A DNA stretch of 11,830 nucleotides from a plasmid. The number at the start of each line of letters is the position of its first letter. Positions within the stretch are counted from its first letter, which is position 1. Under the pieces are notes generated by a model. The model had not been told where the DNA came from. It ran no database searches and saw only the letters and a list, made by a program, of their open reading frames with translations. Of the stretch, positions 1-11,830 are shown one piece after another. The position numbers and the translations under genes are program-made. Where the stretch lies: sequence record NZ_CP072183.1; one strand, written 5' to 3'.

Positions 1-1674
1 ATGGCAGATGAAGCAGTACGAGCCGTTCAAAAATGGCTCAACAAAACGTATGGTAGCGTTCCTGGCTTTGTCGCAGCTCCAGAAAACGGGCAAACGGGAT
101 GGCCAACAATTTATAGCCTAAGAATGGGATTACAGCACGAAATCGGTATTAGTGCTATTGGTGAAGGCTTTGGCGAGACGACCAAAAACGCCTTAGCACC
201 TGTTGTAGGTAGTCTGAAGCCAGGATATAAGGGGAACATTGCTCAACTCATTCAAGGGGCTTTCTGGTGCAAAGGGATTAGTCCAGTAGACTTTAATAAT
301 GAGTTCACGAATAACACCCTTAATGCTGTTAAAGAACTTCAGCAAGATGCTGGCATTGCGGCTGATGGATCTGTGACAGTGGCATTTATGGCGGCTTTGT
401 TTGACATGGCAGCTTTCGTCTTAGTTTCAAACGGCGATGCTAAGGTTCGAACCATGCAGCAAGCGCTCAACCGTAAATTCTCTGGGGAATTACAAGAATT
501 GATGCCGTGTGATGGCGTTTATCAACGAGCAACTAATACAGCGTTGATTTATGCCTTACAACGAGCAATCGGTATGAGTTCTGCGCAAGCAAATGGTAAC
601 TATGGTCCAGGGACAATTGCCGCTACACCTACTGTTAATCAGGGAGCCAATAGCGACGTTGTCCAGGTCATCCAATACGGCTTGTATGTGAACGGCTTTT
701 ATACAGGGGCATTTGATGGCTATTTTAGTTCAGACGTAGCAACGGCAGTGGTAGCTTTTCGAAAGTTTATGAATTTACCGCCATTTAATAGCACAGCTGA
801 CCTAACCGTCATCAAAGGATTGTTGACTAGCAACGGCAATACTAATCGTGATTCAAATACTTTTGATACAGCAACTCAATTAAGTGCTGCACAGGCAAAA
901 CAACTAAAGCAATTCGATTTTTCAATAGTTGCTCGTTATCTAACTGGCAGCGTTGGTGCAGGGGCTGCCGAACGTGATAAATACTTGACTTCCACGGAAC
1001 TTGCAAATCTTACTGAGGCTGGACTAAAAGTTGTGCCAATATATGAAGATGGTGGCTATGAGTTTGATTACTTTAGTCTACAGCAGGGAATTCATGACGG
1101 ATTTGTTGCAAGTAGTACTGCTGCTAAGTTAGGGTTTCCGGCTGCAACTACGATTTACTTTGCAGTTGATGTGGATGTTCAAAGTGGCGATATAGATGGC
1201 ACAATTATTTCTTATTTCCGTGGTATTAGCCAAGCTATGAACAATAGTATTTTCAAAATTGGAATATATGGAACACGGAATGTATGTAATCGGGTAACCG
1301 CTGCATCGGGGACCAATATTCTTTATTCCTACGTCGCTGATATGTCATATGGATGGAGCGGAAACCTAGGTTTTAAGATGCCTCAAAATTGGGCATTTGA
1401 TCAGTTTGTGGAATACTCAGCTGCAGGTGTTGATATTGACCAAGTAGCTTCTTCAGGAAAAGACCAGGGAAGCGGGACTTTCAAAGTGGATCCTAACGCA
1501 GTACGCCTTGAGTTTGCGCGAACCTTAATTAACAATGCCTATCAGTTAAAACCATTACAACCAGATATTCCGACCTTAGAGGTTGATGGCCCTGAAATTC
1601 ATGTATCAACTATTTTGGCAGAGTTTTATCTTAAACTATCAAGTACTTTTGCGAGCAACGATAGTGGAGCCTAG
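1..1674 (+). CDS. N-terminal fragment of a cell-wall hydrolase-like protein: three ~90-aa PG_binding_1-like repeats followed by a DUF1906/Rv2525c-like glycoside-hydrolase-like domain (FDFSIVARYLTG...IYFAVDVD...IGIYGTRN). No signal peptide. The ORF starts exactly at the window edge, so the true N-terminus may lie upstream.
   Basis: 557-codon open frame. Three internal repeats with the PG-binding pattern (L..G..G..V..LQ..L..). The conserved DUF1906-like motifs are recognised from memory of the family, not from a search. Confidence 0.75.
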   Translation: MADEAVRAVQKWLNKTYGSVPGFVAAPENGQTGWPTIYSLRMGLQHEIGISAIGEGFGETTKNALAPVVGSLKPGYKGNIAQLIQGAFWCKGISPVDFNNEFTNNTLNAVKELQQDAGIAADGSVTVAFMAALFDMAAFVLVSNGDAKVRTMQQALNRKFSGELQELMPCDGVYQRATNTALIYALQRAIGMSSAQANGNYGPGTIAATPTVNQGANSDVVQVIQYGLYVNGFYTGAFDGYFSSDVATAVVAFRKFMNLPPFNSTADLTVIKGLLTSNGNTNRDSNTFDTATQLSAAQAKQLKQFDFSIVARYLTGSVGAGAAERDKYLTSTELANLTEAGLKVVPIYEDGGYEFDYFSLQQGIHDGFVASSTAAKLGFPAATTIYFAVDVDVQSGDIDGTIISYFRGISQAMNNSIFKIGIYGTRNVCNRVTAASGTNILYSYVADMSYGWSGNLGFKMPQNWAFDQFVEYSAAGVDIDQVASSGKDQGSGTFKVDPNAVRLEFARTLINNAYQLKPLQPDIPTLEVDGPEIHVSTILAEFYLKLSSTFASNDSGA

Positions 1675-1697
1675 ATTGCAATAATAAAGTTACCACC
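1670..1697. repeat. IS30-family left terminal inverted repeat
   Basis: Pairs with 2693-2720 in inverted orientation, 25/28 identical. Confidence 0.75.
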
Positions 1698-2610
1698 TAG
1701 AAAGAGGCTTGCTCACTGCTTGAACTGGGGTTTGCCAACGGAGACATTTTCTAGGTTTGTTATTGATAAGCGCTGTGGCTTGTTGAATATCGGTCTCTGA
1801 AACCTGATCAAACTGTGTTCCCTTCGGGAAATAGTAGCGAAGTTCTCGATTGAACCGTTCATTTGTGCCCCGTTCATTCGGGTGATAGGCGTGGCAAAAG
1901 TAAACCGGTATCCGATAGCGCTTTGTAAGCGCCTGATCGCAGGAAAACTCTTTACCGTGATCAACCGTCACTGATCGAACCGGACCCGGAAAGTCCACCA
2001 TCAGTCTTGCAAATCCCTTGAGAACAGCATTTTGTGATAAGTTTTCAAGCTTAGTTGTCGCCATTAAACGTGTCACCCGATCGACAATGGTCAAAACAGC
2101 AGCCTTTGACCCGCGACCACCGCGAACTGTATCCATCTCTAAATGTCCTTTTTCGGTTCGCCGATTAGCTGACTCACTGCGAATCTCAATTGAGGTGCCT
2201 ACTGCTTGGTTATAGCGCGACCGAAGGTCTTGTCTTCTTTTATGACGTTTACCGTGATCAAAGAGTTGGCTTGGCTGAAAATCGACTTGTCTTTGATAAA
2301 TCCAGTGGTAAATCGTGTGTGGCGCACAGTGAACGGCATAACCGACCATTTCAGGGGACCAACCTAGGTTTAGCTTCTCAGTTACCATCCGCTTCAACTT
2401 AGGCGTTAAAATCGAGTGCCGACCACAACGATGCCGACAAGTATCGGCATGATCCTGAGCTATAATGGCGCAGTAATCACCTTCAGGGCAACGGTGAAGC
2501 TCATGCCTAATAGAAATACGAGAGCGGCCTAAGGTCGCGGCGATGTATTGAATCGTGTGGTGTTGCATCAGTTCTATCTGAGATCGTTCAATTAAGGTTA
2601 TAATGGCCAT
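1690..2610 (-). CDS. IS30-family DDE transposase (306 aa)
   Basis: N-terminal HTH region (IERSQIELMQHHTIQYIAATLGRSRISI) and a C-terminal integrase-core/DDE region (...DHGKEF... YFCHAYHPNERGTNE) typical of IS30-family transposases. It is bounded by the IS inverted repeats. Confidence 0.9.
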   Translation of the reverse strand: MAIITLIERSQIELMQHHTIQYIAATLGRSRISIRHELHRCPEGDYCAIIAQDHADTCRHRCGRHSILTPKLKRMVTEKLNLGWSPEMVGYAVHCAPHTIYHWIYQRQVDFQPSQLFDHGKRHKRRQDLRSRYNQAVGTSIEIRSESANRRTEKGHLEMDTVRGGRGSKAAVLTIVDRVTRLMATTKLENLSQNAVLKGFARLMVDFPGPVRSVTVDHGKEFSCDQALTKRYRIPVYFCHAYHPNERGTNERFNRELRYYFPKGTQFDQVSETDIQQATALINNKPRKCLRWQTPVQAVSKPLSRW

Positions 2611-2692
2611 GGGACCTGTCCTTCTCTCTAGATGGTATGTTATGCAAACACCATTTTAGCAAGAACGGACAGGTCTTTTTTCACATTTTCTG

Positions 2693-2720
2693 GGTGGTAA
2701 CTTTAATTATGCAATCTAGG
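2693..2720. repeat. IS30-family right terminal inverted repeat
   Basis: Reverse complement matches 1670-1697. Confidence 0.75.
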
Positions 2721-3206
2721 GGAGCGCCACTAGGTTTTACAATTTCTGATGGTAAATTAGGAACTCAAGTACAATCTGAGATCGATAAATTCAAAGAAGC
2801 ACACGAAGCCGCAAAGAATTTTGACTTTACATCTTTGATTGGTACACTAGGGCCAATGATTGGCAATGGAAATCTAAAAGTTGGAATGTCAACCAAAAAT
2901 GGAATGCTAGGATTTAAAGTGGTCTGTGAATCTACAACAACAGTTGTTACCAACGGACAACAGGAAAATGTTACAACTTCGTTGAGTATCGAGATATACA
3001 CTAAGCCAAATGGATTAGGGATCCCAGCTGAAGATTATAAACCAATTTATGTTCCTGTTTCTGAACATGAACCAAACTTGGGGTGGATTCCTTGGGCAGC
3101 AGGGGCGTTTGTATTAATAGTAACAATTATTATGGCTCCAGAAGTAGCGGCTACTCTTATTGGAGCTGCTGCTAAACTATTGCCAGCGACGTTCATTGCT
3201 GCTTAG
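2709..3206 (+). CDS. C-terminal fragment of the IS-split hydrolase gene. It would be translated only from an ATG lying inside the IS right end. Ends with a hydrophobic TM-like segment (WIPWAAGAFVLIVTIIMAPEVAATLIGAAAKLL).
   Basis: The frame from 2721 is continuous with the frame of ORF 1..1674 once the IS is removed. The track ORF start (2637) and the ATG at 2709 both lie within IS sequence. No independent RBS. Confidence 0.5.
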   Translation: MQSRGAPLGFTISDGKLGTQVQSEIDKFKEAHEAAKNFDFTSLIGTLGPMIGNGNLKVGMSTKNGMLGFKVVCESTTTVVTNGQQENVTTSLSIEIYTKPNGLGIPAEDYKPIYVPVSEHEPNLGWIPWAAGAFVLIVTIIMAPEVAATLIGAAAKLLPATFIAA

Positions 3207-3225
3207 CTTTTAAGGAGGTGATTAA

Positions 3226-3729
3226 TTGGGATTGTTACCATTAATACTTGGTGTACTGGGATATTCCATATTGTTGAGCTCGCTTGCTTTAACAATAATG
3301 GTGCGGCACCAAACTTCTGATCAAAAACGTAGCGAAGCCTATATAAAAGTGGCTAAGTATCTGGGCGAAAACCCAACTTTATTTAAGAAGGTAAACCAAT
3401 TAGTCAAATTGGAAGGTGCAACAAAGCTTATGGCATTCGTGTTCTTTTTTGGCGGATGGATAGTCTATTCAATAAATAGCTTTTTGATTGACTCTTTGGA
3501 CGAGGGAGTTCGTGTAATCATTTTGTGGGCATCGATTGCCTTATTTGTTATTTTGACTATTGTGCAGATGATGCTAGAATTTCGGCACAAAAAATTGTTG
3601 GCTTTTCCTCTTTCTAATATTTCTCTAGTAGAGAATACTGCAGGAGAGAAACGTTGGATTCTCAGCAAGATACTGTTAATGATCGGGACCGTGATATTGA
3701 CAATATGGCTACAACTTGTGGCTCAATGA
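3226..3729 (+). CDS. Small integral membrane protein (167 aa, about 4 predicted TM helices), function unknown. TTG start.
   Basis: RBS AGGAGG at 3213-3218, 7 nt before TTG 3226. Four hydrophobic stretches. Followed by a strong terminator. Confidence 0.7.
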   Translation: MGLLPLILGVLGYSILLSSLALTIMVRHQTSDQKRSEAYIKVAKYLGENPTLFKKVNQLVKLEGATKLMAFVFFFGGWIVYSINSFLIDSLDEGVRVIILWASIALFVILTIVQMMLEFRHKKLLAFPLSNISLVENTAGEKRWILSKILLMIGTVILTIWLQLVAQ

Positions 3730-3832
3730 TTACTAACTGATAAACTTTCAAAATTTGTTCCGTTAGATTGTACCCTAACGATTCGTCCAGAAACGTCTTG
3801 AAACAAAGCCTAAAATCCGATTCAAATAAGTG

Positions 3833-3870
3833 ACCCGAAACGATGTCTAAGATCGTTTCGGGTATTTTTA
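3833..3870 (+). terminator. Rho-independent terminator (12-bp perfect stem acccgaaacgat/atcgtttcgggt, then ATTTTTA)
   Basis: Perfect inverted repeat 3833-3844 / 3852-3863 with a T-rich tail, about 100 nt after the stop of the 3226-3729 gene. Confidence 0.7.
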
Positions 3871-3891
3871 TGGGCAGCCATCCGTAACCGT

Positions 3892-3900
3892 TGCTATAAT
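3892..3900 (+). promoter_or_regulatory. TG-extended -10 element (tgcTATAAT) for the HTH gene
   Basis: Consensus TATAAT preceded by TGn, 34 nt upstream of the ATG at 3934. No convincing -35. Confidence 0.35.
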
Positions 3901-3933
3901 CGTCATTAGAATGCACGAGATGAGGACGGTTAT

Positions 3934-4482
3934 ATGAGTAAGACCATCAAAGAGTTAGCAAATGAATTAGGCATAAGCAAGCAAGCGGTGAGTAAGAAAC
4001 TAACTGCCAACTTCCGAGCCAACCACGTAACAACCGTTACCACCAACGGACGCCAGAAGTTGGTGGTTGATGATGATGGTGTATTTGAACTGAAGTCCCA
4101 ATACATAGAAGATCATAACCAACAACAGGGTGCCAACCATTCAACCGCCAACGTTGTCGACGACAACACTAACTTGGTTGATGAACTAAAAAAGCGCATA
4201 TCGGCTCAGGAGAATGAACTATCTCAAAAAAATAAGCAAATTCTTGCTAAGGATTCCCAATTGGAGAACATGCAGAAACTACTTGATCAATCGCAACAAC
4301 TCCAACTAATGGCCGAAAACAAACTTAAGAAGCTGGAAGCACCCCAAAACAACCCTGAGAGCGGTTCTGATCTAGCAAATGACCAAACGCATGAACGAGC
4401 GCCAGAGGCGCCTGTAAAGGCTGAAAGTAGCCCAGAACAACCGCCGTCTTTTTGGCAGAGATTGTTTGGTACTGGAAAGTAA
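3934..4482 (+). CDS. HTH DNA-binding protein with a Q/E/K-rich coiled-coil C-terminal half (182 aa). Resembles the small replication-associated or accessory HTH proteins (RepB/DUF536-like) found next to Rep_3 replicons in Lactobacillaceae plasmids.
   Basis: RBS GAGG about 7 nt upstream of the ATG. N-terminus MSKTIKELANELGISKQAVSKKL is a classic HTH. A TG-extended -10 (tgcTATAAT) lies at 3892-3900. The family assignment is from memory. Confidence 0.7.
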   Translation: MSKTIKELANELGISKQAVSKKLTANFRANHVTTVTTNGRQKLVVDDDGVFELKSQYIEDHNQQQGANHSTANVVDDNTNLVDELKKRISAQENELSQKNKQILAKDSQLENMQKLLDQSQQLQLMAENKLKKLEAPQNNPESGSDLANDQTHERAPEAPVKAESSPEQPPSFWQRLFGTGK

Positions 4483-4483
4483 C

Positions 4484-4513
4484 AAATAGCCACCGTAGTC
4501 ACGGTGGCTATTT
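4484..4513. terminator. Perfect 13-bp-stem hairpin (aaatagccaccgt-agtc-acggtggctattt) immediately after the HTH gene stop. Likely a transcription terminator or stabilising hairpin.
   Basis: Perfect inverted repeat 4484-4496 / 4501-4513. The U-tract is limited to the TTT that belongs to the stem. Confidence 0.5.
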
Positions 4514-4620
4514 CACTAAGTCTTAAAATCCAGAAATCCGTCAGTACAGGTCGTGATCAAGTAGACCAGTGGCTATTTACAAAGTGGGTTGCACGAGGCT
4601 AGGCAGGGTGAGCACTGCAG

Positions 4621-4634
4621 CTAATGGCCATTAG
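4621..4634. promoter_or_regulatory. Perfect 14-bp palindrome ctaatggccattag, upstream of the type I toxin promoter
   Basis: Exactly self-complementary. Candidate operator. Confidence 0.3.
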
Positions 4635-4707
4635 TCAACTGCGCAGATTCCATAACGAAGTTTTGACTATTTTTGATTGGTAATTAAAGTGGTGTTTACT
4701 GCTTTTT

Positions 4708-4716
4708 TGGTATACT
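4708..4716 (+). promoter_or_regulatory. TG-extended -10 (tggTATACT), candidate promoter of the Fst-like toxin mRNA
   Basis: TGn plus TATACT 56 nt upstream of the ATG at 4772. A cgcg-tgatac-cgcg hairpin in the predicted 5'UTR could sequester the RBS. Confidence 0.3.
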
Positions 4717-4768
4717 AGTTTAGTCGCTACGCCTTTTCGCGTGATACCGCGCCTAAAGGTGGTGATAG

Positions 4769-4786
4769 TTCATGAATTCATTCGAT
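4769..4786. repeat. Direct repeat copy a (ttcatGaattcattcgat), spanning the toxin start codon
   Basis: 17/18 identical to 4977-4994. Confidence 0.6.
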
Positions 4787-4861
4787 AAAGCGATCATCGC
4801 GCCGCTGCTTGTCGGTGTGTTTCTGCTTTTGTTGAAATACGCGCTGGATAACCACAAGTAG
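4772..4861 (+). CDS. Fst/par-family-like type I toxin peptide (29 aa: MNSFDKAIIAPLLVGVFLLLLKYALDNHK)
   Basis: RBS AAGGTGGTGA 7 nt upstream. Single TM helix with a charged C-tail. The core IIAPLLVGVFL closely resembles pAD1 Fst VIAPIFVGLVL. Not in the ORF track because it is under 60 aa. Confidence 0.6.
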   Translation: MNSFDKAIIAPLLVGVFLLLLKYALDNHK

Positions 4862-4896
4862 TGTGAGTAGCGACTAATTCCAGCACCTGGCACCGG

Positions 4897-4930
4897 GTCA
4901 TCATCTTCTTGCGGAGATGATGGCTTTTTT
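4897..4930 (+). terminator. Rho-independent terminator for the toxin mRNA (8-bp stem catcatct/agatgatg, loop tcttgcgg, then CTTTTTT)
   Basis: Hairpin plus T6, about 36 nt after the toxin stop. Confidence 0.6.
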
Positions 4931-4935
4931 CGACA

Positions 4936-5005
4936 CAAAAACCCATGCAGCTTGCGGACTACACGGGTTTGTGATGTTCATAAATTCATTCGATTAGGTT
5001 CATTT
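4936..5005 (-). ncRNA. Predicted antisense RNA antitoxin (RNA II-like, about 60-70 nt) of the Fst-like type I TA module
   Basis: Minus-strand promoter candidates: TATAAT (plus 5014-5019) and TGcTAAAAT (plus 5002-5010). It contains the complement of direct repeat b. It ends at a minus-strand terminator (plus 4937-4968: a 7-bp stem that includes a G-U pair, then U5). The architecture mirrors pAD1 par. Confidence 0.4.
4977..4994. repeat. Direct repeat copy b (ttcatAaattcattcgat), within the predicted antisense RNA
   Basis: 17/18 identical to 4769-4786. A transcript from the minus strand across this copy is antisense to the toxin translation initiation region. Confidence 0.6.
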
Positions 5006-5030
5006 TAGCATAGATTATAACCAGTTGCAT

Positions 5031-5810
5031 TTATAAATCTTTGCTTGAGGATCTGCGTGCAAAGTTATTGTGAATTTCAACTTGAACTACTTGTCGTCCT
5101 CGCTTGGCTTGAAACAATTCCAAATCCATATCATCAATTTTCATATTTATTTCTTCGATCGATCTAATTAGAACGCTTTTTTTCAAATCCTTGTAAGCGT
5201 AGTTTTTGGGGGCGCCTAGCCACTTTTTAAAATCATCCGGAGCGCCTTGGACTATCGGGATTGATTGACCATTATCTTTATCAGACTCACGCATCAATTT
5301 ATACAGCAAAATAGCATATTTGCTTTTGAGCTGGACAGTGTCATGTAAAAGATACTGAGTATAGTGACCATTATCCTTAAGACGTAAAAGAAAAGGCGCA
5401 AAATCTTCATTAATTTTGAGTTCTATTTTACCATTTTCCCAAACCTTGGCACGCTCAAACCAACCAGTCATCGTGATTGATCTTTCTACCTCGTTGTAAA
5501 TTCTGACACTCTTAGCACGCATGTCATTGAGATTTTGAGCTAATTGAGAATATGTACGACCGCTACGTTTTAATTCGAGTACGTTAGATAATTCGTACAT
5601 AGATGTTTGAATGACATTGAAGTTCTTGTCATCAGGCTTAATTTTGGAAATTACATAATCCATAATTTTAAGTTCACGCGCATTCAAGTCATGGCGAGCT
5701 TTAGTGATAAGGTCGTTGTGTTCAGCAACCAAAAAATAGCGTTGATCGTTTATTTCGTCTTTGTTAAAGTTACGGTCATTTTTCCATAAGAGCTTCTTTA
5801 CATCTACCAT
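5031..5810 (-). CDS. rep: Rep_3-family (RepB/RepA-type) theta-plasmid replication initiator protein, 259 aa
   Basis: RBS GAGGTGA 6 nt before the ATG at 5810. N-terminal region (LVAEHNDLITKARHDLNARELKIMDYVISKI) typical of Rep_3 initiators of LAB theta plasmids. Iterons lie immediately upstream. Confidence 0.9.
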   Translation of the reverse strand: MVDVKKLLWKNDRNFNKDEINDQRYFLVAEHNDLITKARHDLNARELKIMDYVISKIKPDDKNFNVIQTSMYELSNVLELKRSGRTYSQLAQNLNDMRAKSVRIYNEVERSITMTGWFERAKVWENGKIELKINEDFAPFLLRLKDNGHYTQYLLHDTVQLKSKYAILLYKLMRESDKDNGQSIPIVQGAPDDFKKWLGAPKNYAYKDLKKSVLIRSIEEINMKIDDMDLELFQAKRGRQVVQVEIHNNFARRSSSKDL

Positions 5811-5840
5811 ACAGAATCACCTCAAGAGGTATTATACATT

Positions 5841-5868
5841 AAAAGGAGAACAATTTTGTCTCCTTTTA
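5841..5868. promoter_or_regulatory. Perfect hairpin/inverted repeat (aaaaggaga-caattttg-tctcctttt) between the rep start and the iterons. Candidate Rep autoregulatory operator overlapping the rep promoter (-10 TATAAT on the minus strand at plus 5831-5836).
   Basis: 9-bp perfect arms. Position is typical of Rep autorepression sites. Confidence 0.45.
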
Positions 5869-5869
5869 A

Positions 5870-5972
5870 TTTTTACCCCCCTATCGTGTGCTTTTTACCC
5901 CCCTATCGTGTGCTTTTTACCCCCCTATCGTGTGCTTTTTACCCCCCTATCGTGTGCTTTTTACCCCCCTAT
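5870..5972. repeat. Iterons: 4 full plus 1 partial tandem copy of the 22-bp unit tttttacccccctatcgtgtgc (replication origin of the Rep_3 replicon)
   Basis: Exact tandem repeats at 5870, 5892, 5914 and 5936, plus a 15-bp partial at 5958. A 22-bp period (two helical turns) directly upstream of rep. Confidence 0.9.
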
Positions 5973-6013
5973 TAGTCGATTTAAACGCGTGGTTGAGCCA
6001 TTCTCGTCTCCCT

Positions 6014-6053
6014 AAGTACTTAAAGTATTTAAAAGTATTTAGAAGTATATATA
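6014..6053. repeat. AT-rich tandem 9-10-bp repeats (aagtactta / aagtattta / aaagtattta / gaagtatata). Candidate DNA-unwinding element of the origin.
   Basis: Four degenerate tandem units adjacent to the iterons. Confidence 0.5.
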
Positions 6054-6055
6054 AC

Positions 6056-6295
6056 GCGCGCGAGGCTTGTGTTTGTGTTTTGCTTGTTAATAACCACAAA
6101 AGACCTTGGGGAGAACCTCTTCCCAAACCCCATACAAAATTCTGGTCGCGTTGCTCCCTAAAAAGGTGTGGCTGCGCCACATTTAACTCCGGCTTCGCCT
6201 GCGCGCCGTTGGCTTGCCCTAGCGCGCTTCGCTTGCGTGGCTCAGAAGAACCTCAGCTGAAGCTTCGGTAGGGCTATCGCCATTCACCGACAAAA
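6056..6295. other. GC-rich non-coding island (well above the local approx. 35-40% GC) with nested short inverted repeats (tgtggc-tgc-gccaca; gaagcttc). Function unknown, possibly an oriT-like or recombination-site remnant.
   Basis: Composition shift visible by eye. No plausible ORF on either strand. Confidence 0.4.
6269..6287. repeat. 19-bp direct repeat copy 1 (tagggctaTcgccattcac)
   Basis: 18/19 identical to 7071-7089. The two copies bracket the terminator / RHH gene / upstream region. Confidence 0.5.
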
Positions 6296-6356
6296 GCACA
6301 TTGCCTAAATTTGATCAATTACTAAAGATGTTTATTGGTGTCAAGAACCTATGCTG

Positions 6357-6403
6357 ATAAAAACGGCTTAGAACGCAAATATGAGCGTTCTAAGCCGTTT
6401 TTG
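6357..6403. terminator. Bidirectional rho-independent terminator (14-bp perfect stem acggcttagaacgc/gcgttctaagccgt, A5 on the left and T5 on the right)
   Basis: Perfect inverted repeat flanked by A-run and T-run. About 70 nt downstream of the minus-strand small ORF 6474-6653. Confidence 0.75.
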
Positions 6404-6473
6404 ATGTAGAGAGCATTAATTATACCCACCAGAGTAAGAAACGCTAGTACAGGCCCTTTAGCGCTTTTTAAAC

Positions 6474-6653
6474 TCACTGCTTTGATAACCAGTCCTCAAT
6501 GATATTTGATTTGGTCACGCTGACATGGTACTTAGCCAGTTCCGGATTTTGATTCACTTCCTGTTGCTTTTTTGCGACCAGCTGATTCAATTTTGCAATC
6601 GCCTGATCGGTCAAAGTGAACATGACCCGGTGTGTTTCGTCTTGCTTTGTCAT
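6474..6653 (-). CDS. Small (59 aa) ribbon-helix-helix-like DNA-binding protein (MTKQDETHRVMFTLTDQAIAKLNQLVAKK...). Candidate partition or copy-control regulator (ParR/CopG-like).
   Basis: Found by hand, below the track's size cut-off. Strong RBS (AGGAGG, 8 nt before the ATG at 6653). Predicted beta-strand then helix pattern of RHH proteins. Terminated by the bidirectional terminator. Confidence 0.55.
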   Translation of the reverse strand: MTKQDETHRVMFTLTDQAIAKLNQLVAKKQQEVNQNPELAKYHVSVTKSNIIEDWLSKQ

Positions 6654-6979
6654 TTCAAAAACCTCCTGAATGGTGATGATGAATGGTCGTCTAGCAAACC
6701 AACGCGGCGTTTAAATAGCGTCACGTTACCGGACGAGTTTTGGTCAACAGTTGCGACGGCCCTGGTCAAAACGTGAACGTTTTTCTCCAAGCAAAAGATC
6801 AAAATAAATTGAGTTGCTATCCAATCCTTCTCAAAAATCGGCTCGCCTGGATCGACCACTTTTTGAGACTGCTTGGAACGCGCCTAAAATCATGAAAGAG
6901 CATAAGGCAAAACTGACCCCAAAATTGGGGTAAACCGCAGTGCGGTTTGGTTTGTCGTGATAGCACGTTGGGGTCAAAA

Positions 6980-7116
6980 GGTGTAGTAAAACGCCATTTA
7001 CTCCACGTGAAAAAATTACGAACGTGTAGTAAAACGCGTTTTACTACACGTGGATGATGCCAGTTACGACAAGGGCTAGCGCCATTCACTACACGTAAAC
7101 AGTTTTTTACTACACC
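6980..7116. promoter_or_regulatory. Cluster of six copies of the 9-bp motif TACTACACG/CGTGTAGTA, arranged as an imperfect palindrome (6980-7008), a perfect 30-bp palindrome (7022-7051: acgtgtagtaaaacgcgttttactacacgt) and a direct pair (7087-7116). Operator or centromere-like protein-binding array.
   Basis: Repeats read directly. Spacing between centres is about 43 and 65 bp. Lies upstream of the RHH-like gene. Confidence 0.5.
7071..7089. repeat. 19-bp direct repeat copy 2 (aagggctaGcgccattcac)
   Basis: See 6269-6287. Confidence 0.5.
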
Positions 7117-7468
7117 TGAGCAAGATTATTCGCTTATTGGGCATAAACGAACGATTTTTGGTGTTTCAGCGCGTACAGCTATATAGTAGCTTGTCTGCAA
7201 CTCGGCATACGTATAGTGAGTTGCTCGAATTGAAGCGTAGATGTTGCTTTAACAGAAACTGTCGAGATGCTTGTAAATTAACAGAACGTTGAATTAGCCG
7301 AAGCTTTAAAGTTGCACAAATAGCAACTGATATGTTTATCAAATGCAACTCATATATTACACAATGTTCAACTTGAATGAAACTCTAAATGCAAGTGGGT
7401 GTCAACACCACGTGTAACATCGTGAGAAGGTCAGCGAAAAGATGGCGGCAGATGCTGTTTAAATTTTG

Positions 7469-7526
7469 ATTTTGAAGGGGGACTCACCTCCCTTCAAAAT
7501 AACAGGGGGATTGGGGGCGTGCCCCC
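7469..7526. other. Two adjacent G/C-rich hairpins (ttgaaggggg-actcac-ctcccttcaa and ttggggg-cgtg-cccccaa) with no U-tracts
   Basis: 8-bp and 7-bp perfect stems. Not followed by T-runs on either strand. Confidence 0.4.
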
Positions 7527-7573
7527 AAACAAAATTGACGATCAGCGCAGCTGAGATTCTGTCAATTCATCGT

Positions 7574-7589
7574 AAGTGTACGTACACTT
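7574..7589. promoter_or_regulatory. Perfect 16-bp palindrome aagtgtacgtacactt, about 240 bp upstream of the toxin operon promoter
   Basis: Exactly self-complementary. Operator-like. Confidence 0.4.
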
Positions 7590-7827
7590 GCAAATCTCGC
7601 GACAGTAGAAAAACGTCAAAAAGGAAAATTTGGCATTTACGGATTTTGCTTTTTATTTGGGATTCATAGTTAACACTAGATCACTTAAAAATAACGGATT
7701 TTCAATGGAGACGCTAATTACTTTTGAGCTATTCAAGCACATTTTTCTTAGCACATTTAGCGACTTCTTCGGCGTGCTTCGTTCTAGATCAATTCACTTA
7801 GGCAGTGGTTTTATAGGCTAATAATAA

Positions 7828-7856
7828 TTGAGCTTTATGAGTTGTTCAGCTATAAA
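7828..7856 (+). promoter_or_regulatory. Candidate sigma-A promoter of the toxin-immunity operon (TTGAGC-17 bp-TATAAA)
   Basis: -35 at 7828-7833 and -10 at 7851-7856. This would put the TSS downstream of the track ATG at 7842. Confidence 0.45.
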
Positions 7857-7928
7857 ATAGCGACTATACTGCTCAATGTATACAGTTATTGCCAGGCACT
7901 GAAGAACTTTGGAAAGAAGATAATAGGC

Positions 7929-8831
7929 GTGAAAAAGTGGAAAGTTATTGGGCTAATATTCGGGCTCTTTCTAGTCAATTTGCTTGGGTATTCAACAATT
8001 GTATCCGCAGACACAACACAATCTTTAAATCAAATTGTTTCAACTGAAAGCCGTATTAGCGATAACAATACTCAACTGACCAATGCTGACAAGTTATCAA
8101 GAAGTAATCCAGAAAATGGACAACCAATTATCGCTTCTGGAAAACAAGTGGTACTGAATAATAGTCATGGCAATGGCATAAGTTCTCGTGCAGAAGTTCC
8201 TGTTACAAATATTACCTGGCACTTATCGGAAGAATACATATCCGGAAAATTCAGAGTCAATTTCTGGATTGATTCTATTGAGGGTGTCCCGCCAGCCGCA
8301 GTTGATGTGCAAATTGAATTTAATACTGAGCCTACCCTTGCAGGTCCGGTGAATGCCAATACGCTGGCACCCATTAGCAAAATAGGCGGTTTGCAAACAG
8401 GATTACTTGGTTTTACAGAATTGCCAGCCAAAACCACATTTTTTAACGTTGCTGGCGCTGTTGGATTTATAGGAGTTAATGGAGCGGCTAATGTAAAACC
8501 AATCCCACCAACGGCCATCTATTTACAAAATAAAATAGGACAGAATTTCCCTGAATATGTTGATCCCGTGTCTAAAAAAGATGCAGAAACACCTATTAAT
8601 ACTACCTGGACTAAGTTATCAAAATCTCCTAGTTGGTCATCAAAAGATAGATATATTTATATTAAAACGTTCAGTGAAACATATGGCAATCAATCTGCAG
8701 ATTTTTGGAGTTCTCGAGAAGTGCATCATATTCGCCCGAGAGTTTATGGCGGAACAAATGACTTTAATAATTTGATGCCGGTGTTAACACCAAATCATCG
8801 GTTGATCACCGCGTGGTTTAACAACTATTGA
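7929..8831 (+). CDS. Secreted toxin with an N-terminal Sec signal peptide (MKKWKVIGLIFGLFLVNLLGYSTIVSA|DT) and a C-terminal HNH/EndoVII-fold DNase domain of the colicin E9/pyocin (AHH/SHH-like) type: EVHHIRPRVYGGTNDFNNLMPVLTPNHRLI
   Basis: The longest ORF starts at ATG 7842, but a GTG at 7929 gives a canonical signal peptide and lies downstream of the predicted promoter. The C-terminal motif aligns position-by-position with the colicin E9 HNH motif [32 protein letters not shown], recalled from memory. The stop overlaps the RBS of the next gene. Confidence 0.75.
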   Translation: MKKWKVIGLIFGLFLVNLLGYSTIVSADTTQSLNQIVSTESRISDNNTQLTNADKLSRSNPENGQPIIASGKQVVLNNSHGNGISSRAEVPVTNITWHLSEEYISGKFRVNFWIDSIEGVPPAAVDVQIEFNTEPTLAGPVNANTLAPISKIGGLQTGLLGFTELPAKTTFFNVAGAVGFIGVNGAANVKPIPPTAIYLQNKIGQNFPEYVDPVSKKDAETPINTTWTKLSKSPSWSSKDRYIYIKTFSETYGNQSADFWSSREVHHIRPRVYGGTNDFNNLMPVLTPNHRLITAWFNNY

Positions 8832-8843
8832 GGAGGAACTCAT

Positions 8844-9347
8844 TTGGAATCTCTAATTCGGCGAAGAATTAATTCTTTAATAAAGGTGACGAAAAATGGG
8901 GAAAAAGCGCTCTCAACATTCCAATTAGATGGAGATGTGCAAAATGTTTCTTTTAAGATAGAACCTCCTGCACACGCTGATGATATAGAAAAAATAAAAA
9001 GGTGGAACCTTCCACAGGATTACATTGAGTTTCTCTCGATTACTAATGGACTATTTTTATTTGACACAACAATCGAAGGGATTCCTATGGGATATACGTG
9101 TGAAGTCTATTCAATTAGAAAAATGATTAAAGAAAAAGAGGCACTGCCTAAAAGTTTTGTAAATAAAGTACCCATTCTCCATATAAGGGATGTCGGAGAT
9201 ATGTATATTGATATAGAGAAGTATCGGTTAGGAAAATCATATCTAACTCATCCCGGAATAGAAGCAGACCGATATTTCGATTTTTCATTTTCAAAATGGC
9301 TCGATAAATATATGGTGGCGGGAGGCAATGAGTTTTGGAATTTCTGA
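8844..9347 (+). CDS. SUKH-1 (SMI1/KNR4) family immunity protein, 167 aa. TTG start.
   Basis: RBS GAGGAGG at 8830-8836, 7 nt before TTG 8844. Hallmark SUKH-1 motifs W-LPqDYieFL...NG (KRWNLPQDYIEFLSITNGLFLFD) and a C-terminal IRDVGDMYIDI. Translationally coupled to the nuclease gene. Confidence 0.85.
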   Translation: MESLIRRRINSLIKVTKNGEKALSTFQLDGDVQNVSFKIEPPAHADDIEKIKRWNLPQDYIEFLSITNGLFLFDTTIEGIPMGYTCEVYSIRKMIKEKEALPKSFVNKVPILHIRDVGDMYIDIEKYRLGKSYLTHPGIEADRYFDFSFSKWLDKYMVAGGNEFWNF

Positions 9348-9406
9348 TAACAAAGTTGGCCAAGTAGGAAACCAAAAACTTCGAATTGAGATTGATTAGT
9401 GTGCTT

Positions 9407-9437
9407 AATAAGGCTGTCAAAGAAAAACAGCCTTATT
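9407..9437. terminator. Hairpin with an 11-bp perfect stem (aataaggctgt / acagccttatt) between convergent genes. Candidate bidirectional terminator with weak U-tracts.
   Basis: Perfect inverted repeat. Located after the immunity gene stop and after the stop of the minus-strand gene at 9585. Confidence 0.4.
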
Positions 9438-9584
9438 ATCACAAGCTAGATCTCATTAGAGTATAAGATAACATTTATGAAAACTAACGACTTTTGCTTA
9501 AAAACCGCCTAAATTACGTGTTTGTAAGCATAAGAGACAGTTTGAGTGTACTGACTGTCAAGGTGGGGGACAGTTAGTGTAATT

Positions 9585-10343
9585 TCAGGAATTTATAAAG
9601 GAGATTGGTAAGTCTAAATCGACAGTATTATACGTTATAACTAGACCATTGGCAGAGCTTGCGGGAACGCCCTCAATAGTTATTGCAATGGTCTTTTTCT
9701 TTTTTGCTGGAATAGAAATTTTTGAGAATGGCTTTACTTTTAATGAGTTACCTTCTGAATCAGAAACAGTAAGGTATTTGGTATCTAATACGACAGGGAC
9801 AAGGTAGTGATCATTTTTAACCGTTATGTTAAAAGCAGTGGTGTTTTTTATACTGTTCTTGTTTTGTTTTTTAGGGGTAATGGTCATGCTAAATAAAACA
9901 TGCGACTTTCCATTGTACTTAAACTCTTCTCCCATAGGAATTGGCTTTCTTGAAATGGCACTTTTCATAATATGATAACCAATGGGAACAGAAACCACTT
10001 TGGTTTGTATATTATTGTTATGCTTAACCCGTATTGCAAGCTTAGAGGAGGAGGGCTTTAATTCCGAAACGGTATTTTCTCTTTTATTCGAAATGCCAGA
10101 AGAAAGTTGATTCTCTTTAAGATCACTTATCGTATATTTGCTTTTTGGAGAGGTAGCAAATGTGACAGCAATACTGTTACTGTGCTTAATAAGTTTGACT
10201 TTTTTAATAGTAATGGTGGGACGTTCAAACTTATTTGAGGCCGTTCCTTCAGGGTTCATGCGCCATAACACCGCAAGAACAATTACTCCAATTATGCTGA
10301 CAGCCAAGATGAGCCAAAAGTAACGTTTGTTTTTTAAAAGCAT
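9585..10343 (-). CDS. N-terminally membrane-anchored extracytoplasmic protein (about 252 aa), function unknown. Likely beta-rich, DUF4352-like.
   Basis: Start chosen at ATG (plus 10341-10343) with GGAGG 7 nt upstream. The track's TTG at 10349 abuts the SD and was not used. One TM helix (FWLILAVSIIGVIVLAVLW), then a K/S/T/N-rich soluble domain. Confidence 0.75.
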   Translation of the reverse strand: MLLKNKRYFWLILAVSIIGVIVLAVLWRMNPEGTASNKFERPTITIKKVKLIKHSNSIAVTFATSPKSKYTISDLKENQLSSGISNKRENTVSELKPSSSKLAIRVKHNNNIQTKVVSVPIGYHIMKSAISRKPIPMGEEFKYNGKSHVLFSMTITPKKQNKNSIKNTTAFNITVKNDHYLVPVVLDTKYLTVSDSEGNSLKVKPFSKISIPAKKKKTIAITIEGVPASSANGLVITYNTVDLDLPISFINS

Positions 10344-10394
10344 TGACAAGCCTCCGTGAATGCGGTTTCATTTTAAGAAAAAGGGGGAATTAAA

Positions 10395-11480
10395 TTGCGA
10401 AAAGTATGGGCATATATCACTATGATAGCTGCAGCCTTAGCGATAATTCAAGTTCAAACGGTAAGTGTAAGTGCTGATAGTATGGCAAATCCTTTGGCAG
10501 CGAATAGCCATGTTTTACCAAAGAATGATATTGTTTTGACTAACCAGACGACAACACAACAGTTTTTGAATGAAATCATTCGACAATATCAGTATTCTTA
10601 TCCCGATTTTAAAGGGAGTGTCAAAGCTTATACACCTGATCAATATCAGGATTTAAAAGAAGGAAAGAAAGTTCAAGGAATTACGTCCGAATATCTTGCG
10701 AAACTGAATAAATCGTCTAATCATCTATCTGTGAGGACGGTATCACCTGTGTCAAACCCCAATTCGGCGCCGTACAGTTCCGTTGGGGTTTTGAGCACGT
10801 GGTTTTCGATGGCAAATGGTGTCATGGTCATTAACTCACCATACCTTGACAGTTCGTATAAAAAAATCATCTCTAACTCAAATGGCACAGAGCTGAGCAG
10901 TGGAACTTCTGGCGGTACTGGATTTAGCATTGGAGTAGACCGTATAGGGACAGCAGCACACATGTTATATGATGGTCATTATATTTCTGGAGGAATTATT
11001 AACTTTGGTGATAGTCAAGCAAATCATCAAGGGGTCGGTTACGGAGTATTGAATAGATTGATAGTGCCACAGGCATGGATTAATAATTCAACAGCTACTT
11101 CGAATGATTACGGGGCTGCAATTGTCTCTATGAAGTCTGGTAGTATGCCTGCGGGTCTTAATTTAAATACGAACCCTGCTGATACGATGGCAGCAAGATC
11201 CATTGGATTCCCTGGCGATCCGCAATCAGGGTACGAACTTCAAGGAGTCATGGTTCAATCAAGTGGGACTGTCACACCCTTTTCAGAGGACCCACTAGGA
11301 ATATATATTTCACAACAAATTAATTCGTATCATGGCATGTCGGGAGGTCCATTACTTGATGGCAACAATTCGGTTATCGGAATAAACATTCTTGCTTGGT
11401 CGAACGTGCAAGGACAAGAGTATCAGTGGGGATTTCGACGAATGAATAGTGGAGTTGCGGGATTCTTGAGAAATTATTAG
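10395..11480 (+). CDS. Secreted trypsin-like (chymotrypsin-fold, S1 family) serine peptidase, 361 aa, with a signal peptide
   Basis: RBS AAGGGGGAA before TTG 10395. Signal peptide MRKVWAYITMIAAALAIIQVQTVSVSA|DS. Catalytic triad motifs in canonical order: GTAAHM (His), NDYGAAIV (Asp), GMSGGPLL (Ser). Confidence 0.85.
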   Translation: MRKVWAYITMIAAALAIIQVQTVSVSADSMANPLAANSHVLPKNDIVLTNQTTTQQFLNEIIRQYQYSYPDFKGSVKAYTPDQYQDLKEGKKVQGITSEYLAKLNKSSNHLSVRTVSPVSNPNSAPYSSVGVLSTWFSMANGVMVINSPYLDSSYKKIISNSNGTELSSGTSGGTGFSIGVDRIGTAAHMLYDGHYISGGIINFGDSQANHQGVGYGVLNRLIVPQAWINNSTATSNDYGAAIVSMKSGSMPAGLNLNTNPADTMAARSIGFPGDPQSGYELQGVMVQSSGTVTPFSEDPLGIYISQQINSYHGMSGGPLLDGNNSVIGINILAWSNVQGQEYQWGFRRMNSGVAGFLRNY

Positions 11481-11652
11481 TCCTTGTCTAGTCTATCCTA
11501 AAAAAACCAGCGCTAAATGAGATAGCACAAACATTTGGAAGGTGAAATTGAGCTTGCGCCCACATTTTCATAGTCGTCGATACATGTCTAACCAAGTCCA
11601 TGAGCGTTCGATGATCCATCGTTGTGGCAATACTTTAAATATAGACATTAAG

Positions 11653-11693
11653 AATGAGGCAACTTCAACACTATGTGAGGGCCTCATTTTTTT
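11653..11693 (+). terminator. Candidate rho-independent terminator (stem aatgaggc/gcctcatt with a large loop, then T7)
   Basis: 8-bp stem plus T7, about 170 nt after the peptidase stop. The loop is unusually long (20 nt). Confidence 0.4.
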
Positions 11694-11830
11694 GCTAAGT
11701 TCAAAATAAAAGGATTATTTGTGGATCAGGGTTGCCTTTCGAAGCTTTGAAGAGATGAAATGAATCCGAACATATGTTTGCTTTTTGTGACGGCAGACGT
11801 GCTGTCTAAAACAAAAAAGGAGACTTTAAA

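What the first reader, a model, noticed from the sequence alone, without database searches (positions are those of the whole stretch)
4700..5020. Unannotated Fst/par-like type I toxin-antitoxin module next to the replicon
A 29-aa ORF with a strong SD encodes MNSFDKAIIAPLLVGVFLLLLKYALDNHK, a single-TM peptide with a charged tail. Its core IIAPLLVGVFL is near-identical in pattern to Fst of pAD1 (VIAPIFVGLVL). An 18-bp sequence covering its start codon (ttcatGaattcattcgat, 4769-4786) is repeated 17/18 at 4977-4994, beyond two back-to-back intrinsic terminators (plus-strand 4897-4930, minus-strand 4937-4968). Minus-strand -10 elements (TATAAT, TGcTAAAAT) sit just right of the second repeat. A ~65-nt convergent RNA would therefore carry the complement of the repeat and pair, with one G-U, across the toxin RBS and ATG. 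This is exactly the RNA I/RNA II logic of par. Neither the peptide nor the RNA is in the ORF track.
Basis: partly seen in the sequence, partly recalled or inferred. Interest (0 to 1): 0.7.

Follow-up and report, generated by a model that had tools for sequence, protein, structure and literature searches.

The report
Known Lpt/RNA II plasmid toxin-antitoxin locus

Summary
These are the 29-aa ORF (4772-4861), the strong SD, the repeat over the start codon (18/19 nt, against at most 15/19 in 200 shuffles), two back-to-back terminators and the minus-strand -10 boxes. The Fst/par-like reading is also right.

It is not new. Window 4640-5030 is 100% identical to pLBPC-2 (AP012543), the reference sequence on which Folli et al. 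2017 defined the Lpt/RNA II type I toxin-antitoxin system. The peptide is Lpt itself: P11 is CCG, K22 is AAA, pI is 8.21, and it is 69% identical to Lpt-like. The two -10 hexamers mutated in that paper (TATACT, TAAAAT) are the ones in the window.

RefSeq leaves the gene unannotated because Lpt scores below the curated Fst cut-offs (Pfam 23.1 of 36 bits, NCBIfam 15.1 of 26).

My additions are small. Across 34 related loci the two repeat copies co-vary, so cognate pairs are far more stable than non-cognate ones. Unlike par of pAD1, the two RNAs have separate terminators. The apical loops of these terminators are complementary and co-vary, which suggests a kissing-loop start. The rep mRNA should also carry the RNA II sequence in its 3' UTR.

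Verdict: already known, low interest.

The parts
4708..4716 (+). RNA I (toxin mRNA) promoter: extended -10, TGgTATACT
   Evidence: Sequence. TATACT is the hexamer mutated to TGTCCC in Folli 2017, which abolished RNAP binding. It is conserved in all 14 aligned loci.
4722..4931 (+). RNA I, about 210 nt. The start is inferred as about 7 nt after the -10 box and the end as the T-run of T1.
   Evidence: MFE -82.4 kcal/mol, z = -5.4. Consensus fold over 9 distinct homologues gives 66 pairs, 13 of them with compensatory changes. The published RACE 5' end lies 27 nt downstream of the predicted start, about 4750.
4720..4730 (+). 5' strand of the upstream helix (UH). It pairs with 4867-4877, just after the stop codon.
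   Evidence: 11-nt, 100% complementary inverted repeat I2. Present in the MFE and in the consensus structure, columns 5-12 with 149-156. Named UH in Folli 2017.
4867..4877 (+). 3' strand of the upstream helix
4731..4760 (+). 5' stem-loop (SL). Its 3' arm AAAGG is the start of the SD, paired to CCUUU at 4733-4737.
   Evidence: MFE. Consensus pairs at columns 13-18 with 37-42 are nearly invariant. Described as the SL that sequesters the RBS.
4756..4766 (+). Shine-Dalgarno region AAAGGTGGTGA
   Evidence: Sequence. GGTGGTGA or GGAGGTGA is conserved in all homologues.
4772..4861 (+). lpt, the 29-aa Lpt toxin: single transmembrane helix, PXXXG motif P11-G15, polar C-terminal tail
   Evidence: ORF. 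Pfam Fst_toxin E = 6.8e-5. P11 = CCG and K22 = AAA, as in Maggi 2019. pI 8.21 and 69% identity to Lpt-like, as in Maggi 2024. Core codons 7-21 differ by 6-7 synonymous and 0 non-synonymous changes against the L010/L012 group.
4762..4786 (+). DR1: repeat copy in RNA I covering the 3' part of the SD, the spacer, the AUG and codons 2-5
4897..4930 (+). T1, the intrinsic terminator of RNA I: 12-14 bp stem plus U6. Apical sequence CUUGCGGA at 4908-4915.
   Evidence: Folds. Compensatory changes at 4 stem pairs.
4930..4973 (-). T2, the intrinsic terminator of RNA II and the first hairpin downstream of rep. Apical sequence UCCGCAAG, the complement of + strand 4951-4958.
   Evidence: Folds. 6 of 12 stem pairs carry compensatory changes.
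4971..4994 (+). DR2: second repeat copy. Its complement forms the single-stranded 5' tail of RNA II.
   Evidence: DR1 x RNA II duplex is -30.2 kcal/mol.
4930..4995 (-). RNA II (antitoxin sRNA), about 66 nt by my estimate. The paper predicts 74 nt. Its ends have not been mapped experimentally.
   Evidence: Start inferred as 7 nt after TAAAAT. Fold. Consensus fold has a free 5' tail plus T2.
5002..5010 (-). RNA II promoter: extended -10, TGcTAAAAT. The -35 region (about 5030-5025) abuts the rep stop codon (5033-5031).
   Evidence: Sequence. TAAAAT was mutated to TGACAC in Folli 2017, which abolished RNAP binding. About 4-fold higher occupancy than the RNA I promoter.
5031..5810 (-). Context: rep, a Rep_3 family initiator, on the same strand as RNA II and immediately upstream of it
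   Evidence: Pfam Rep3_N 131 bits and Rep3_C 56 bits. RefSeq 'replication initiation protein'. Conserved microsynteny reported.
3934..4482 (+). Context: 'replication protein B' / DUF536-type HTH gene upstream of lpt on the same strand
   Evidence: RefSeq annotation. Synteny noted in Folli 2017.

Best explanation
This is the Lpt/RNA II type I toxin-antitoxin module of the pLBPC-2 plasmid family. It belongs to the Fst/par group.

RNA I. A weak promoter (TGgTATACT) makes a stable, highly folded RNA I of about 210 nt that encodes the 29-aa membrane peptide Lpt. In the full-length RNA the 5' end is locked to the region just after the stop codon (the upstream helix). A 5' stem-loop buries the Shine-Dalgarno sequence.

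RNA II. A stronger convergent promoter (TGcTAAAAT) makes a small RNA II of about 65-75 nt. Its unstructured 5' tail is complementary to RNA I from the SD through codon 5. That is 24-25 nt with one G-U and a 1-nt bulge, and the duplex is about -30 kcal/mol. Pairing blocks ribosome loading.

First contact. I infer that contact starts as a kissing interaction between the complementary apical loops of the two separate terminators (CUUGCGGA in RNA I, UCCGCAAG in RNA II). It would then spread to the repeat.

Outcome. If RNA II supply stops, through plasmid loss or stress, the more stable RNA I is freed and perhaps 5'-processed to expose the SD. Lpt is then made and inserts in the membrane, which arrests growth, condenses the nucleoid and makes the membrane leaky.

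Shown in published work on this sequence or near-identical ones: both promoters bind RNAP, both RNAs exist, the RNA I ends are mapped, and Lpt is toxic in E. coli and needs P11 and the C-terminal tail.

Inferred: RNA I-RNA II pairing in vivo, the kissing-loop step, and plasmid stabilisation in Lacticaseibacillus.
For: Identity:
- 100% over window 4640-5030 to NZ_AP012543.1 1624-2014.
- 100% over window 4680-5056 to 1598-1974. This is the published locus range.

Peptide matches every published descriptor of Lpt:
- 29 aa, core AIIAPLLVGVFLLL, P11 CCG, K22 AAA, pI 8.21, 20/29 (69%) identical to Lpt-like.
- Fst relationship: PF13955 E = 6.8e-5 and NF033608 E = 0.015. The pLBPC-1 homologue at the same kind of locus passes NF033608 (34.8 bits against a cut-off of 26) and is annotated as an Fst family toxin.

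Coding selection:
- The hydrophobic core shows mostly synonymous changes across groups.

RNA architecture:
- RNA I z = -5.4.
- UH, SL and T1 are kept in the consensus fold, with 13 compensatory pairs.
- RNA II has a free 5' tail plus T2, with 6 of 12 compensatory pairs.

Repeat:
- 18/19 against at most 15/19 in 200 shuffles.
- DR1 and DR2 co-vary. The mean cognate duplex is -29.9 kcal/mol against -17.5 for non-cognate pairs. This rests on 14 plasmid loci carrying six distinct peptides (five repeat types).
- The same pattern holds in 34 loci including metagenomic ones.
- Most within-locus differences between the two copies give G-U pairs.

Loop complementarity:
- 6-8 nt in every locus, in 4 co-varying variants.

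Published experiments:
-.
Against: - Curated family thresholds are not reached by Lpt itself (23.1 of 36 bits, 15.1 of 26 bits).
- No Rfam family matched the RNA II region, even at E <= 10.
- The simple promoter and terminator scanner found neither published promoter nor either terminator.
- The RNA II ends are not mapped. A 2021 review states that the mechanism of regulation by RNA II is unknown.
- Toxicity has been shown only in E. coli. No plasmid-stability data from the native host turned up.
- Both RNAs rise together in cheese-like medium, which is not classical post-segregational-killing behaviour.
- Loop co-variation rests on only about 2 variable positions and 4 variants. These are not phylogenetically independent.
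Confidence: 0.9

Rival explanations
1. There is no independent antitoxin gene. T2 is simply the rep terminator, and the DR2 complement reaches the cell only as the 3' UTR of the rep mRNA, or as a fragment processed from it. Toxin repression would then be coupled to rep transcription.
For: rep (5031-5810, minus) ends 21 nt before the -10 box of the RNA II promoter. No hairpin lies between the rep stop and T2, so rep transcripts should run through DR2 to T2. The rep-lpt synteny is conserved.
Against: The extended -10 TGcTAAAAT is conserved. In the published AFM assay it bound E. coli RNAP about 4 times more often than the RNA I promoter, and the binding was lost when TAAAAT was mutated. In L010-L014 rep lies 60-100 nt or more further away, yet the RNA II promoter region is retained. 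The two sources of antisense RNA are not mutually exclusive.
Confidence: 0.08
2. The module is a genuine type I toxin/antisense pair. Its main role, however, is a stress or starvation response (growth modulation during cheese ripening) and not post-segregational killing for plasmid maintenance.
For: RNA I and RNA II are both up-regulated in cheese-like broth, and RNA I was detected in ripening Parmigiano Reggiano. Weaver's review flags Lpt as a possible exception to par-like regulation. Lpt overexpression in E. coli gives transient stasis and not death.
Against: All known copies sit on plasmids directly beside rep. The RNA architecture (UH, SL, repeat, stronger antitoxin promoter) matches the par plasmid-stabilisation system. 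Repeat specificity groups that differ between co-resident plasmids fit plasmid-specific addiction. For example, pLBPC-1 and pLBPC-2 occur in one strain, with a cognate duplex of about -30 kcal/mol against a cross duplex of -15 to -22.
Confidence: 0.2
3. The ORF, the repeat and the hairpins are chance features of a non-coding spacer downstream of rep.
For: The ORF is very short, and the scanner tools did not flag the promoters or terminators.
Against: The repeat exceeds every one of 200 shuffles. There is a synonymous-substitution pattern and there are compensatory stem changes. The locus is conserved in 50 plasmid records. Published transcripts and toxicity also argue against chance.
Confidence: 0.01

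Closest known systems
Lpt/RNA II type I TA system of Lacticaseibacillus plasmids (Folli et al. 2017, PMC5608710; Maggi et al. 2019, PMC6811638; Maggi et al. 2024, PMC11352940)
   Same: It is the same locus. The nucleotide sequence is 100% identical to the pLBPC-2 reference. The peptide, the promoters, the repeat, the UH and SL, and the neighbouring rep and repB-like genes are all the same.
   Different: Nothing differs in sequence. I found two points not stated in the Lpt papers I searched. First, the two terminator loops are complementary and co-vary. Second, rep transcripts must read through RNA II.
par (Fst-RNA I/RNA II) of Enterococcus faecalis plasmid pAD1
   Same: - Convergent RNA I and RNA II.
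- A small toxin with one transmembrane helix and a PXXXG motif.
- A repeat transcribed in both directions that covers the toxin translation start.
- A 5' upstream helix and a 5' stem-loop that hides the SD.
- An antitoxin promoter stronger than the toxin promoter.
- The plasmid location.

   Different: - par has one shared bidirectional terminator, so its loops are complementary by construction, and two repeats, DRa and DRb.
- Here there are two separate, non-overlapping terminators. Their stems are unrelated, and only the apical 6-8 nt are complementary.
- There is one composite repeat, with conserved flanks and a plasmid-specific core.
- Lpt is 29 aa against 33 aa for Fst, and it falls below the Fst HMM cut-offs.
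- The Lpt C-terminal tail is required for toxicity, unlike that of Fst.
Lpt-like and other Lpt paralogue groups (pMA3, pRCEID7.6, pMC11, pLBPC-1 and others)
   Same: Same architecture and synteny. The core AIIAPLLVGV is shared by four of the five groups.
   Different: The core of the repeat and the loop sequences differ between groups, which gives separate RNA specificity groups. The peptide termini also differ: pI 8.21 for Lpt against 5.88 for Lpt-like.
hok/sok of plasmid R1
   Same: The toxin mRNA is held inactive by 5'-3' long-range pairing, and it is possibly activated by processing. An antisense RNA blocks translation. The role is plasmid addiction. This comparison rests on my general knowledge.
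   Different: The toxin family is unrelated. Sok overlaps the mok leader in cis. Activation of hok mRNA is by 3' trimming, whereas 5' processing is suspected for Lpt RNA I.

Membership tests
Lpt/RNA II locus (Folli et al. 2017) | Sequence identity to the reference locus on pLBPC-2 (AP012543 1598-1974 and 2009-1541) | tested here: met
   100% over 391 nt and 100% over 377 nt at exactly record 1598-1974. The published range is given.
Lpt/RNA II locus (Folli et al. 2017) | 29-aa Lpt peptide with the published properties (P11 CCG, K22 AAA, pI 8.21, core AIIAPLLVGVFLLL, 69% identity to Lpt-like) | tested here: met
   compared
Lpt/RNA II locus (Folli et al. 2017) | -10 hexamers TATACT (RNA I) and TAAAAT (RNA II) on convergent strands | tested here: met
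   4711-4716 (+) and 5007-5002 (-). The mutated hexamers are listed.
Fst/Ldr toxin family (Pfam PF13955, NCBIfam NF033608) | HMM score at or above the curated cut-off | tested here: not met
   PF13955 gives 23.1 bits against GA 36, E = 6.8e-5. NF033608 gives 15.1 bits against 26, E = 0.015. The match is significant but below threshold. The pLBPC-1 homologue reaches 34.8 bits on NF033608, which links the group to the family.
Fst/Ldr toxin family (Pfam PF13955, NCBIfam NF033608) | Short peptide with one hydrophobic helix carrying a (A)PXXXG motif, followed by a polar or charged C-terminal tail | tested here: met
   A10-P11-L-L-V-G15 and the tail KYALDNHK. The motif is defined.
Fst/Ldr toxin family (Pfam PF13955, NCBIfam NF033608) | Toxic when over-produced (membrane damage, nucleoid condensation) | not testable with these tools
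   Published for the identical peptide, in E. coli only.
par-type RNA I/RNA II regulation (pAD1) | Direct repeat transcribed in opposite directions, covering the toxin translation initiation region | tested here: met
   DR1 at 4762-4786 and DR2 at 4971-4994. They co-vary in homologues. There is one composite repeat here, not DRa plus DRb.
par-type RNA I/RNA II regulation (pAD1) | Single bidirectional intrinsic terminator shared by both RNAs | tested here: not met
   There are two separate hairpins, T1 at 4897-4924 (+) and T2 at 4973-4936 (-), with unrelated stems. Only the apical 6-8 nt are complementary.
par-type RNA I/RNA II regulation (pAD1) | 5' upstream helix and 5' stem-loop that sequesters the SD in the toxin mRNA | tested here: met
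   The MFE and the consensus fold both contain them.
par-type RNA I/RNA II regulation (pAD1) | RNA II binds RNA I and represses toxin translation; plasmid stabilisation by post-segregational killing | not testable with these tools
   Only indirect published data exist: an E. coli growth assay with the RNA II promoter inactivated. A review states that the mechanism is unknown.
Rfam antitoxin sRNA families | Covariance-model match over the RNA II region | tested here: not met
   No relevant match at E <= 10 in 4400-5300 on either strand.

The most novel reading that the evidence does not exclude
In the Lpt branch of the Fst/par family the shared bidirectional terminator has been replaced by two independent terminators. 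Only their apical loops are kept complementary. The variants are CUUGCGGA/UCCGCAAG, CUAGCAGA/UCUGCUAG, UUAGCGG/CCGCUAA and GUAGCG/CGCUAC. Selection would therefore act directly on a loop-loop kissing contact that starts antitoxin binding. Together with the plasmid-specific core of the repeat, this would set RNA specificity groups that keep co-resident plasmids from cross-neutralising each other. In addition, the rep mRNA would carry the complete antitoxin sequence as its 3' UTR, which would tie toxin repression to transcription of the replication gene.
Probability: 0.4. Interest if true: 0.3.

Novelty: already known. Interest (0 to 1): 0.1.

Why it matters
As a discovery it matters little. The locus, the peptide, the two RNAs and their promoters were described in 2017 and studied further in 2019, 2021 and 2024.

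Its practical value is for annotation. PGAP misses Lpt in most Lacticaseibacillus plasmids because the peptide scores below the Fst HMM cut-off. As a result, addiction modules on food and probiotic-strain plasmids go unrecorded.

The comparative results here offer concrete, testable hypotheses for a question a 2021 review calls open, namely how RNA II controls Lpt. Those results are the co-varying repeat core, the co-varying terminator loops and rep read-through.

Tried and rejected
- Rfam scan of 4400-5300 at E <= 10: only a chance hit to a viral frameshift element, nothing for RNA II.
- Consensus promoter/terminator scan: it reported a different weak promoter-like site (TTGACT at 4663 and TAAAGT ending at 4690) and hairpins inside the ORF. 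It missed T1, T2 and both published promoters. I did not rely on it.
- PDB sequence search with the peptide: no Fst structure was retrieved, only a chance hit at E = 1.5.
- Full-text search for the peptide string: no hits, because the sequence appears only in figures. I established identity through codons, pI, percent identity and coordinates.
- Whole-RNA duplexfold of RNA I against RNA II: z = -3.6, but one of 300 shuffles scored as well. This measure is uninformative for long RNAs, so I used the repeat segment.
- Genome contigs pattern scan: 1 true locus (L. plajomi, same group as pRCEID7.6) and 8 hits outside the lactobacilli that I took to be chance matches and did not inspect.
- Metagenome pattern scan: 119 loci, of which only 22 pass my SD, start-codon and 25-40 aa ORF filter, all with Lpt-family peptides. 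It produced no new repeat or loop classes beyond the four already seen.
- Overlapping minus-strand ORFs (61 aa at 4753-4938, 50 aa at 4794-4946): rejected as genes. They run antisense through lpt and T1, and the substitution pattern fits the plus-strand frame.
- Iteron or origin explanation for the repeat: rejected. There are only two copies, 208 nt apart, downstream of rep, and they co-vary as an antisense pair.
- YUNR U-turn motif in the T1 loop: CUUG, CUAG and UUAG fit the motif, but the pLBPC-1 group has none, and the motif carries too little information to count as evidence.
Full report
**1. What is in the sequence**

- A 29-codon ORF lies at 4772-4861 (+) and encodes MNSFDKAIIAPLLVGVFLLLLKYALDNHK.
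- The ORF is preceded by AAAGGTGGTGA.
- The sequence around the start codon, GTTCATGAATTCATTCGAT (4768-4786), recurs at 4976-4994 with one mismatch.
- With a 1-nt indel the repeat extends to GTGAT...TTCGAT, at 4762-4786 and 4971-4994.
- In 200 dinucleotide shuffles of 4640-5030 the best 19-mer direct match was 12-15 of 19, never 18.

Two hairpins lie back to back between the repeat copies.

- T1 is on the plus strand at 4897-4924 and is followed by T6.
- T2 is on the minus strand at 4973-4936 and is followed by UUUUUGUGU.
- The minus-strand boxes TGcTAAAAT (5010-5002) and TATAAT (5019-5014) are present.
- The simple scanner missed both hairpins and both promoters, so I did not use it as evidence either way.

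**2. What it is**

Window 4640-5030 is 100% identical to plasmid pLBPC-2 of Lacticaseibacillus paracasei JCM 8130 (NZ_AP012543.1 1624-2014, minus strand). It is also identical to several sister plasmids. Window 4680-5056 maps at 100% to record 1598-1974.

Folli et al. 2017 (PMC5608710) defined the 'Lactobacillus plasmid toxin' Lpt/RNA II type I toxin-antitoxin locus on this sequence. They cite AP012543 2009-1541 in their Fig. 2 and 1598-1974 in their Table 1.

That paper describes the following:
- convergent RNA I and RNA II;
- a 29-aa toxin;
- a 24-nt complementary repeat that spans the start codon;
- an upstream helix (UH) and an SD-sequestering stem-loop (SL) in RNA I;
- a predicted 74-nt antitoxin.

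The hexamers they mutated to inactivate the promoters were TATACT to TGTCCC and TAAAAT to TGACAC. These are the hexamers at 4711-4716 (+) and 5007-5002 (-) of the window.

The peptide string is not in the searchable text, but every published descriptor fits the window ORF.
- The Lpt coding region of the L. rhamnosus strains is identical to that of pLBPC-2.
- The mutants P11 (CCG) and K22 (AAA>TAA) match codons 11 and 22.
- The conserved core AIIAPLLVGVFLLL matches.
- The computed pI is 8.21, the published value.
- Identity to Lpt-like is 20/29, or 69%, also the published value. The Lpt-like sequence is recovered here from pMA3-type plasmids and matches the published cloning primer.

The window as a whole is a permuted, complete copy of this plasmid backbone plus one IS insertion.

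**3. Why it is unannotated**

RefSeq has no CDS between the repB-like gene and rep in pLBPC-2 or pEG9C.

Lpt matches the Fst models significantly but below the curated cut-offs. Pfam PF13955 gives 23.1 bits (GA 36, E = 6.8e-5). NCBIfam NF033608 gives 15.1 bits (cut-off 26). The Lpt-like groups behave the same way.

The 32-aa homologue on pLBPC-1 scores 34.8 bits on NF033608. It is annotated as 'type I toxin-antitoxin system Fst family toxin'.

**4. Independent support for the mechanism**

I aligned 14 plasmid loci carrying six distinct peptides, which fall into five repeat types.

*Coding selection.* Against the L010/L012 group, the hydrophobic core (codons 7-21) differs at 6-7 codons synonymously and at none non-synonymously.

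*RNA I.*
- It folds far better than shuffles, at -82.4 kcal/mol and z = -5.4.
- The consensus fold of nine distinct homologues keeps four elements: the UH (4720-4730 with 4867-4877), the SL that pairs CCUUU with the AAAGG of the SD, a coding-region helix, and T1.
- 13 of its 66 pairs are compensatory.

*RNA II.* It folds as a free 5' tail plus T2, and 6 of the 12 stem pairs are compensatory.

*The repeat.*
- Its flanks (GTGA... and ...TTCGAT) are conserved.
- Its core is group-specific and changes in parallel in both copies. The cores are TTCATGAATTCAT, TTTATGAGTCCCT, CTCGTGAGTAATT, GTCATGAATACTT and GTATGTCTTCAT.
- Cognate DR1 x RNA II duplexes average -29.9 kcal/mol, against -17.5 for non-cognate pairs.
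- Most differences between the two copies within a locus are transitions that give G-U pairs.
- A further 22 metagenomic loci and one L. plajomi contig fall into the same classes.

The repeat is conserved, and more than that, it co-varies.

**5. Where it departs from par of pAD1**

In par the two RNAs share one bidirectional terminator. The complementary terminator loops start the interaction.

Here the terminators are separate and their stems are unrelated, yet the apical sequences are complementary. RNA I carries CUUGCGGA (4908-4915). RNA II carries UCCGCAAG, the complement of 4951-4958.

The complementarity is kept in all 34 loci through co-varying variants: CUAGCAGA/UCUGCUAG, UUAGCGG/CCGCUAA and GUAGCG/CGCUAC.

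I found no mention of this in the two Lpt papers I searched. A 2021 review says the mechanism of regulation by RNA II is unknown.

This evidence is suggestive and not strong. Only about two positions vary, and the four variants share ancestry.

A second point follows from the layout.
- The rep stop codon (5033-5031) abuts the -35 region of the RNA II promoter.
- T2 is the first hairpin downstream of rep.
- rep mRNA should therefore contain the whole RNA II sequence. This is an inference.

**6. Mechanism, with status of each step**

Shown in published work:
- Both promoters bind RNAP, and the RNA II promoter is occupied about 4 times more often.
- Both RNAs are detected by qRT-PCR.
- The RNA I 5' end lies 27 nt downstream of the predicted start, which suggests processing that would remove the UH and open the SL.
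- Lpt is toxic in E. coli, with nucleoid condensation and membrane permeabilisation. Toxicity needs P11 and the C-terminal tail.
- Lpt makes liposomes leak.

Supported here by comparative analysis:
- translation of the ORF;
- the UH, SL, T1 and T2 structures;
- antisense pairing at the repeat.

Inferred:
- kissing-loop initiation;
- faster decay of RNA II;
- post-segregational killing in the native host.

A stress-response role remains a live alternative for the biological function, because both RNAs rise in cheese-like medium.

**7. Verdict**

The novelty class is 'already known'. The interest score is low (0.1). The residual novel reading is selected kissing loops on separate terminators, RNA specificity groups, and a rep 3' UTR that carries the antitoxin. 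It is plausible (about 0.4) but would be only a modest refinement of a known system.

Noticed in passing
window 1671-2716 (transposase ORF 1690-2610, minus): An IS30-family insertion sequence of about 1.05 kb lies here. NF033563 scores 227 bits, and the element has imperfect terminal inverted repeats (GATTGCA...AAAGTTACCACC). It is absent from pLBPC-2 and pEG9C. It splits the glycoside-hydrolase-domain gene into the ORFs at 1-1674 and 2637-3206.
   Followed up: partly
window 1-11830: The window is a complete, permuted circular plasmid. It consists of the 10,775-bp pLBPC-2 backbone at about 99.9-100% identity plus the IS30 element. It lacks the ISL1 copy present in pEG9C.
   Followed up: yes
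window 4908-4915 and 4951-4958: The same 8-mer, CTTGCGGA, sits at the apex of both terminator hairpins on the plus strand. [quoted passage not shown] The pair co-varies in four variants across 34 loci. I found no mention of it in the Lpt papers I searched.
   Followed up: yes
window 4930-5033 (minus strand): The rep stop codon (5033-5031) abuts the -35 region of the RNA II promoter, and no hairpin precedes T2. rep mRNA should therefore end at T2 and carry the whole antitoxin sequence as its 3' UTR.
   Followed up: partly
L014 (pLBPC-1, NZ_AP012542.1) against the window: Strain JCM 8130 carries two Lpt-type loci on two plasmids, with different repeat cores and different loop sequences. Cognate duplexes are about -30 to -31 kcal/mol and cross duplexes are -15 to -22. 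This fits separate RNA specificity groups that avoid cross-neutralisation.
   Followed up: partly
window about 7842-9347: Two adjacent genes are annotated in pEG9C as an HNH-endonuclease-motif protein and an SMI1/KNR4 family protein. The pairing resembles a nuclease toxin and immunity pair.
   Followed up: no
window 4484-4513 (minus-strand hairpin AAATAGCCACCGTGACTACGGTGGCTATTT): A 13-bp hairpin lies just downstream of the repB-like gene (3934-4482), and GTGGCTATTT recurs at 4504-4513 and 4569-4578. It may be a terminator or a regulatory site of the replicon.
   Followed up: no
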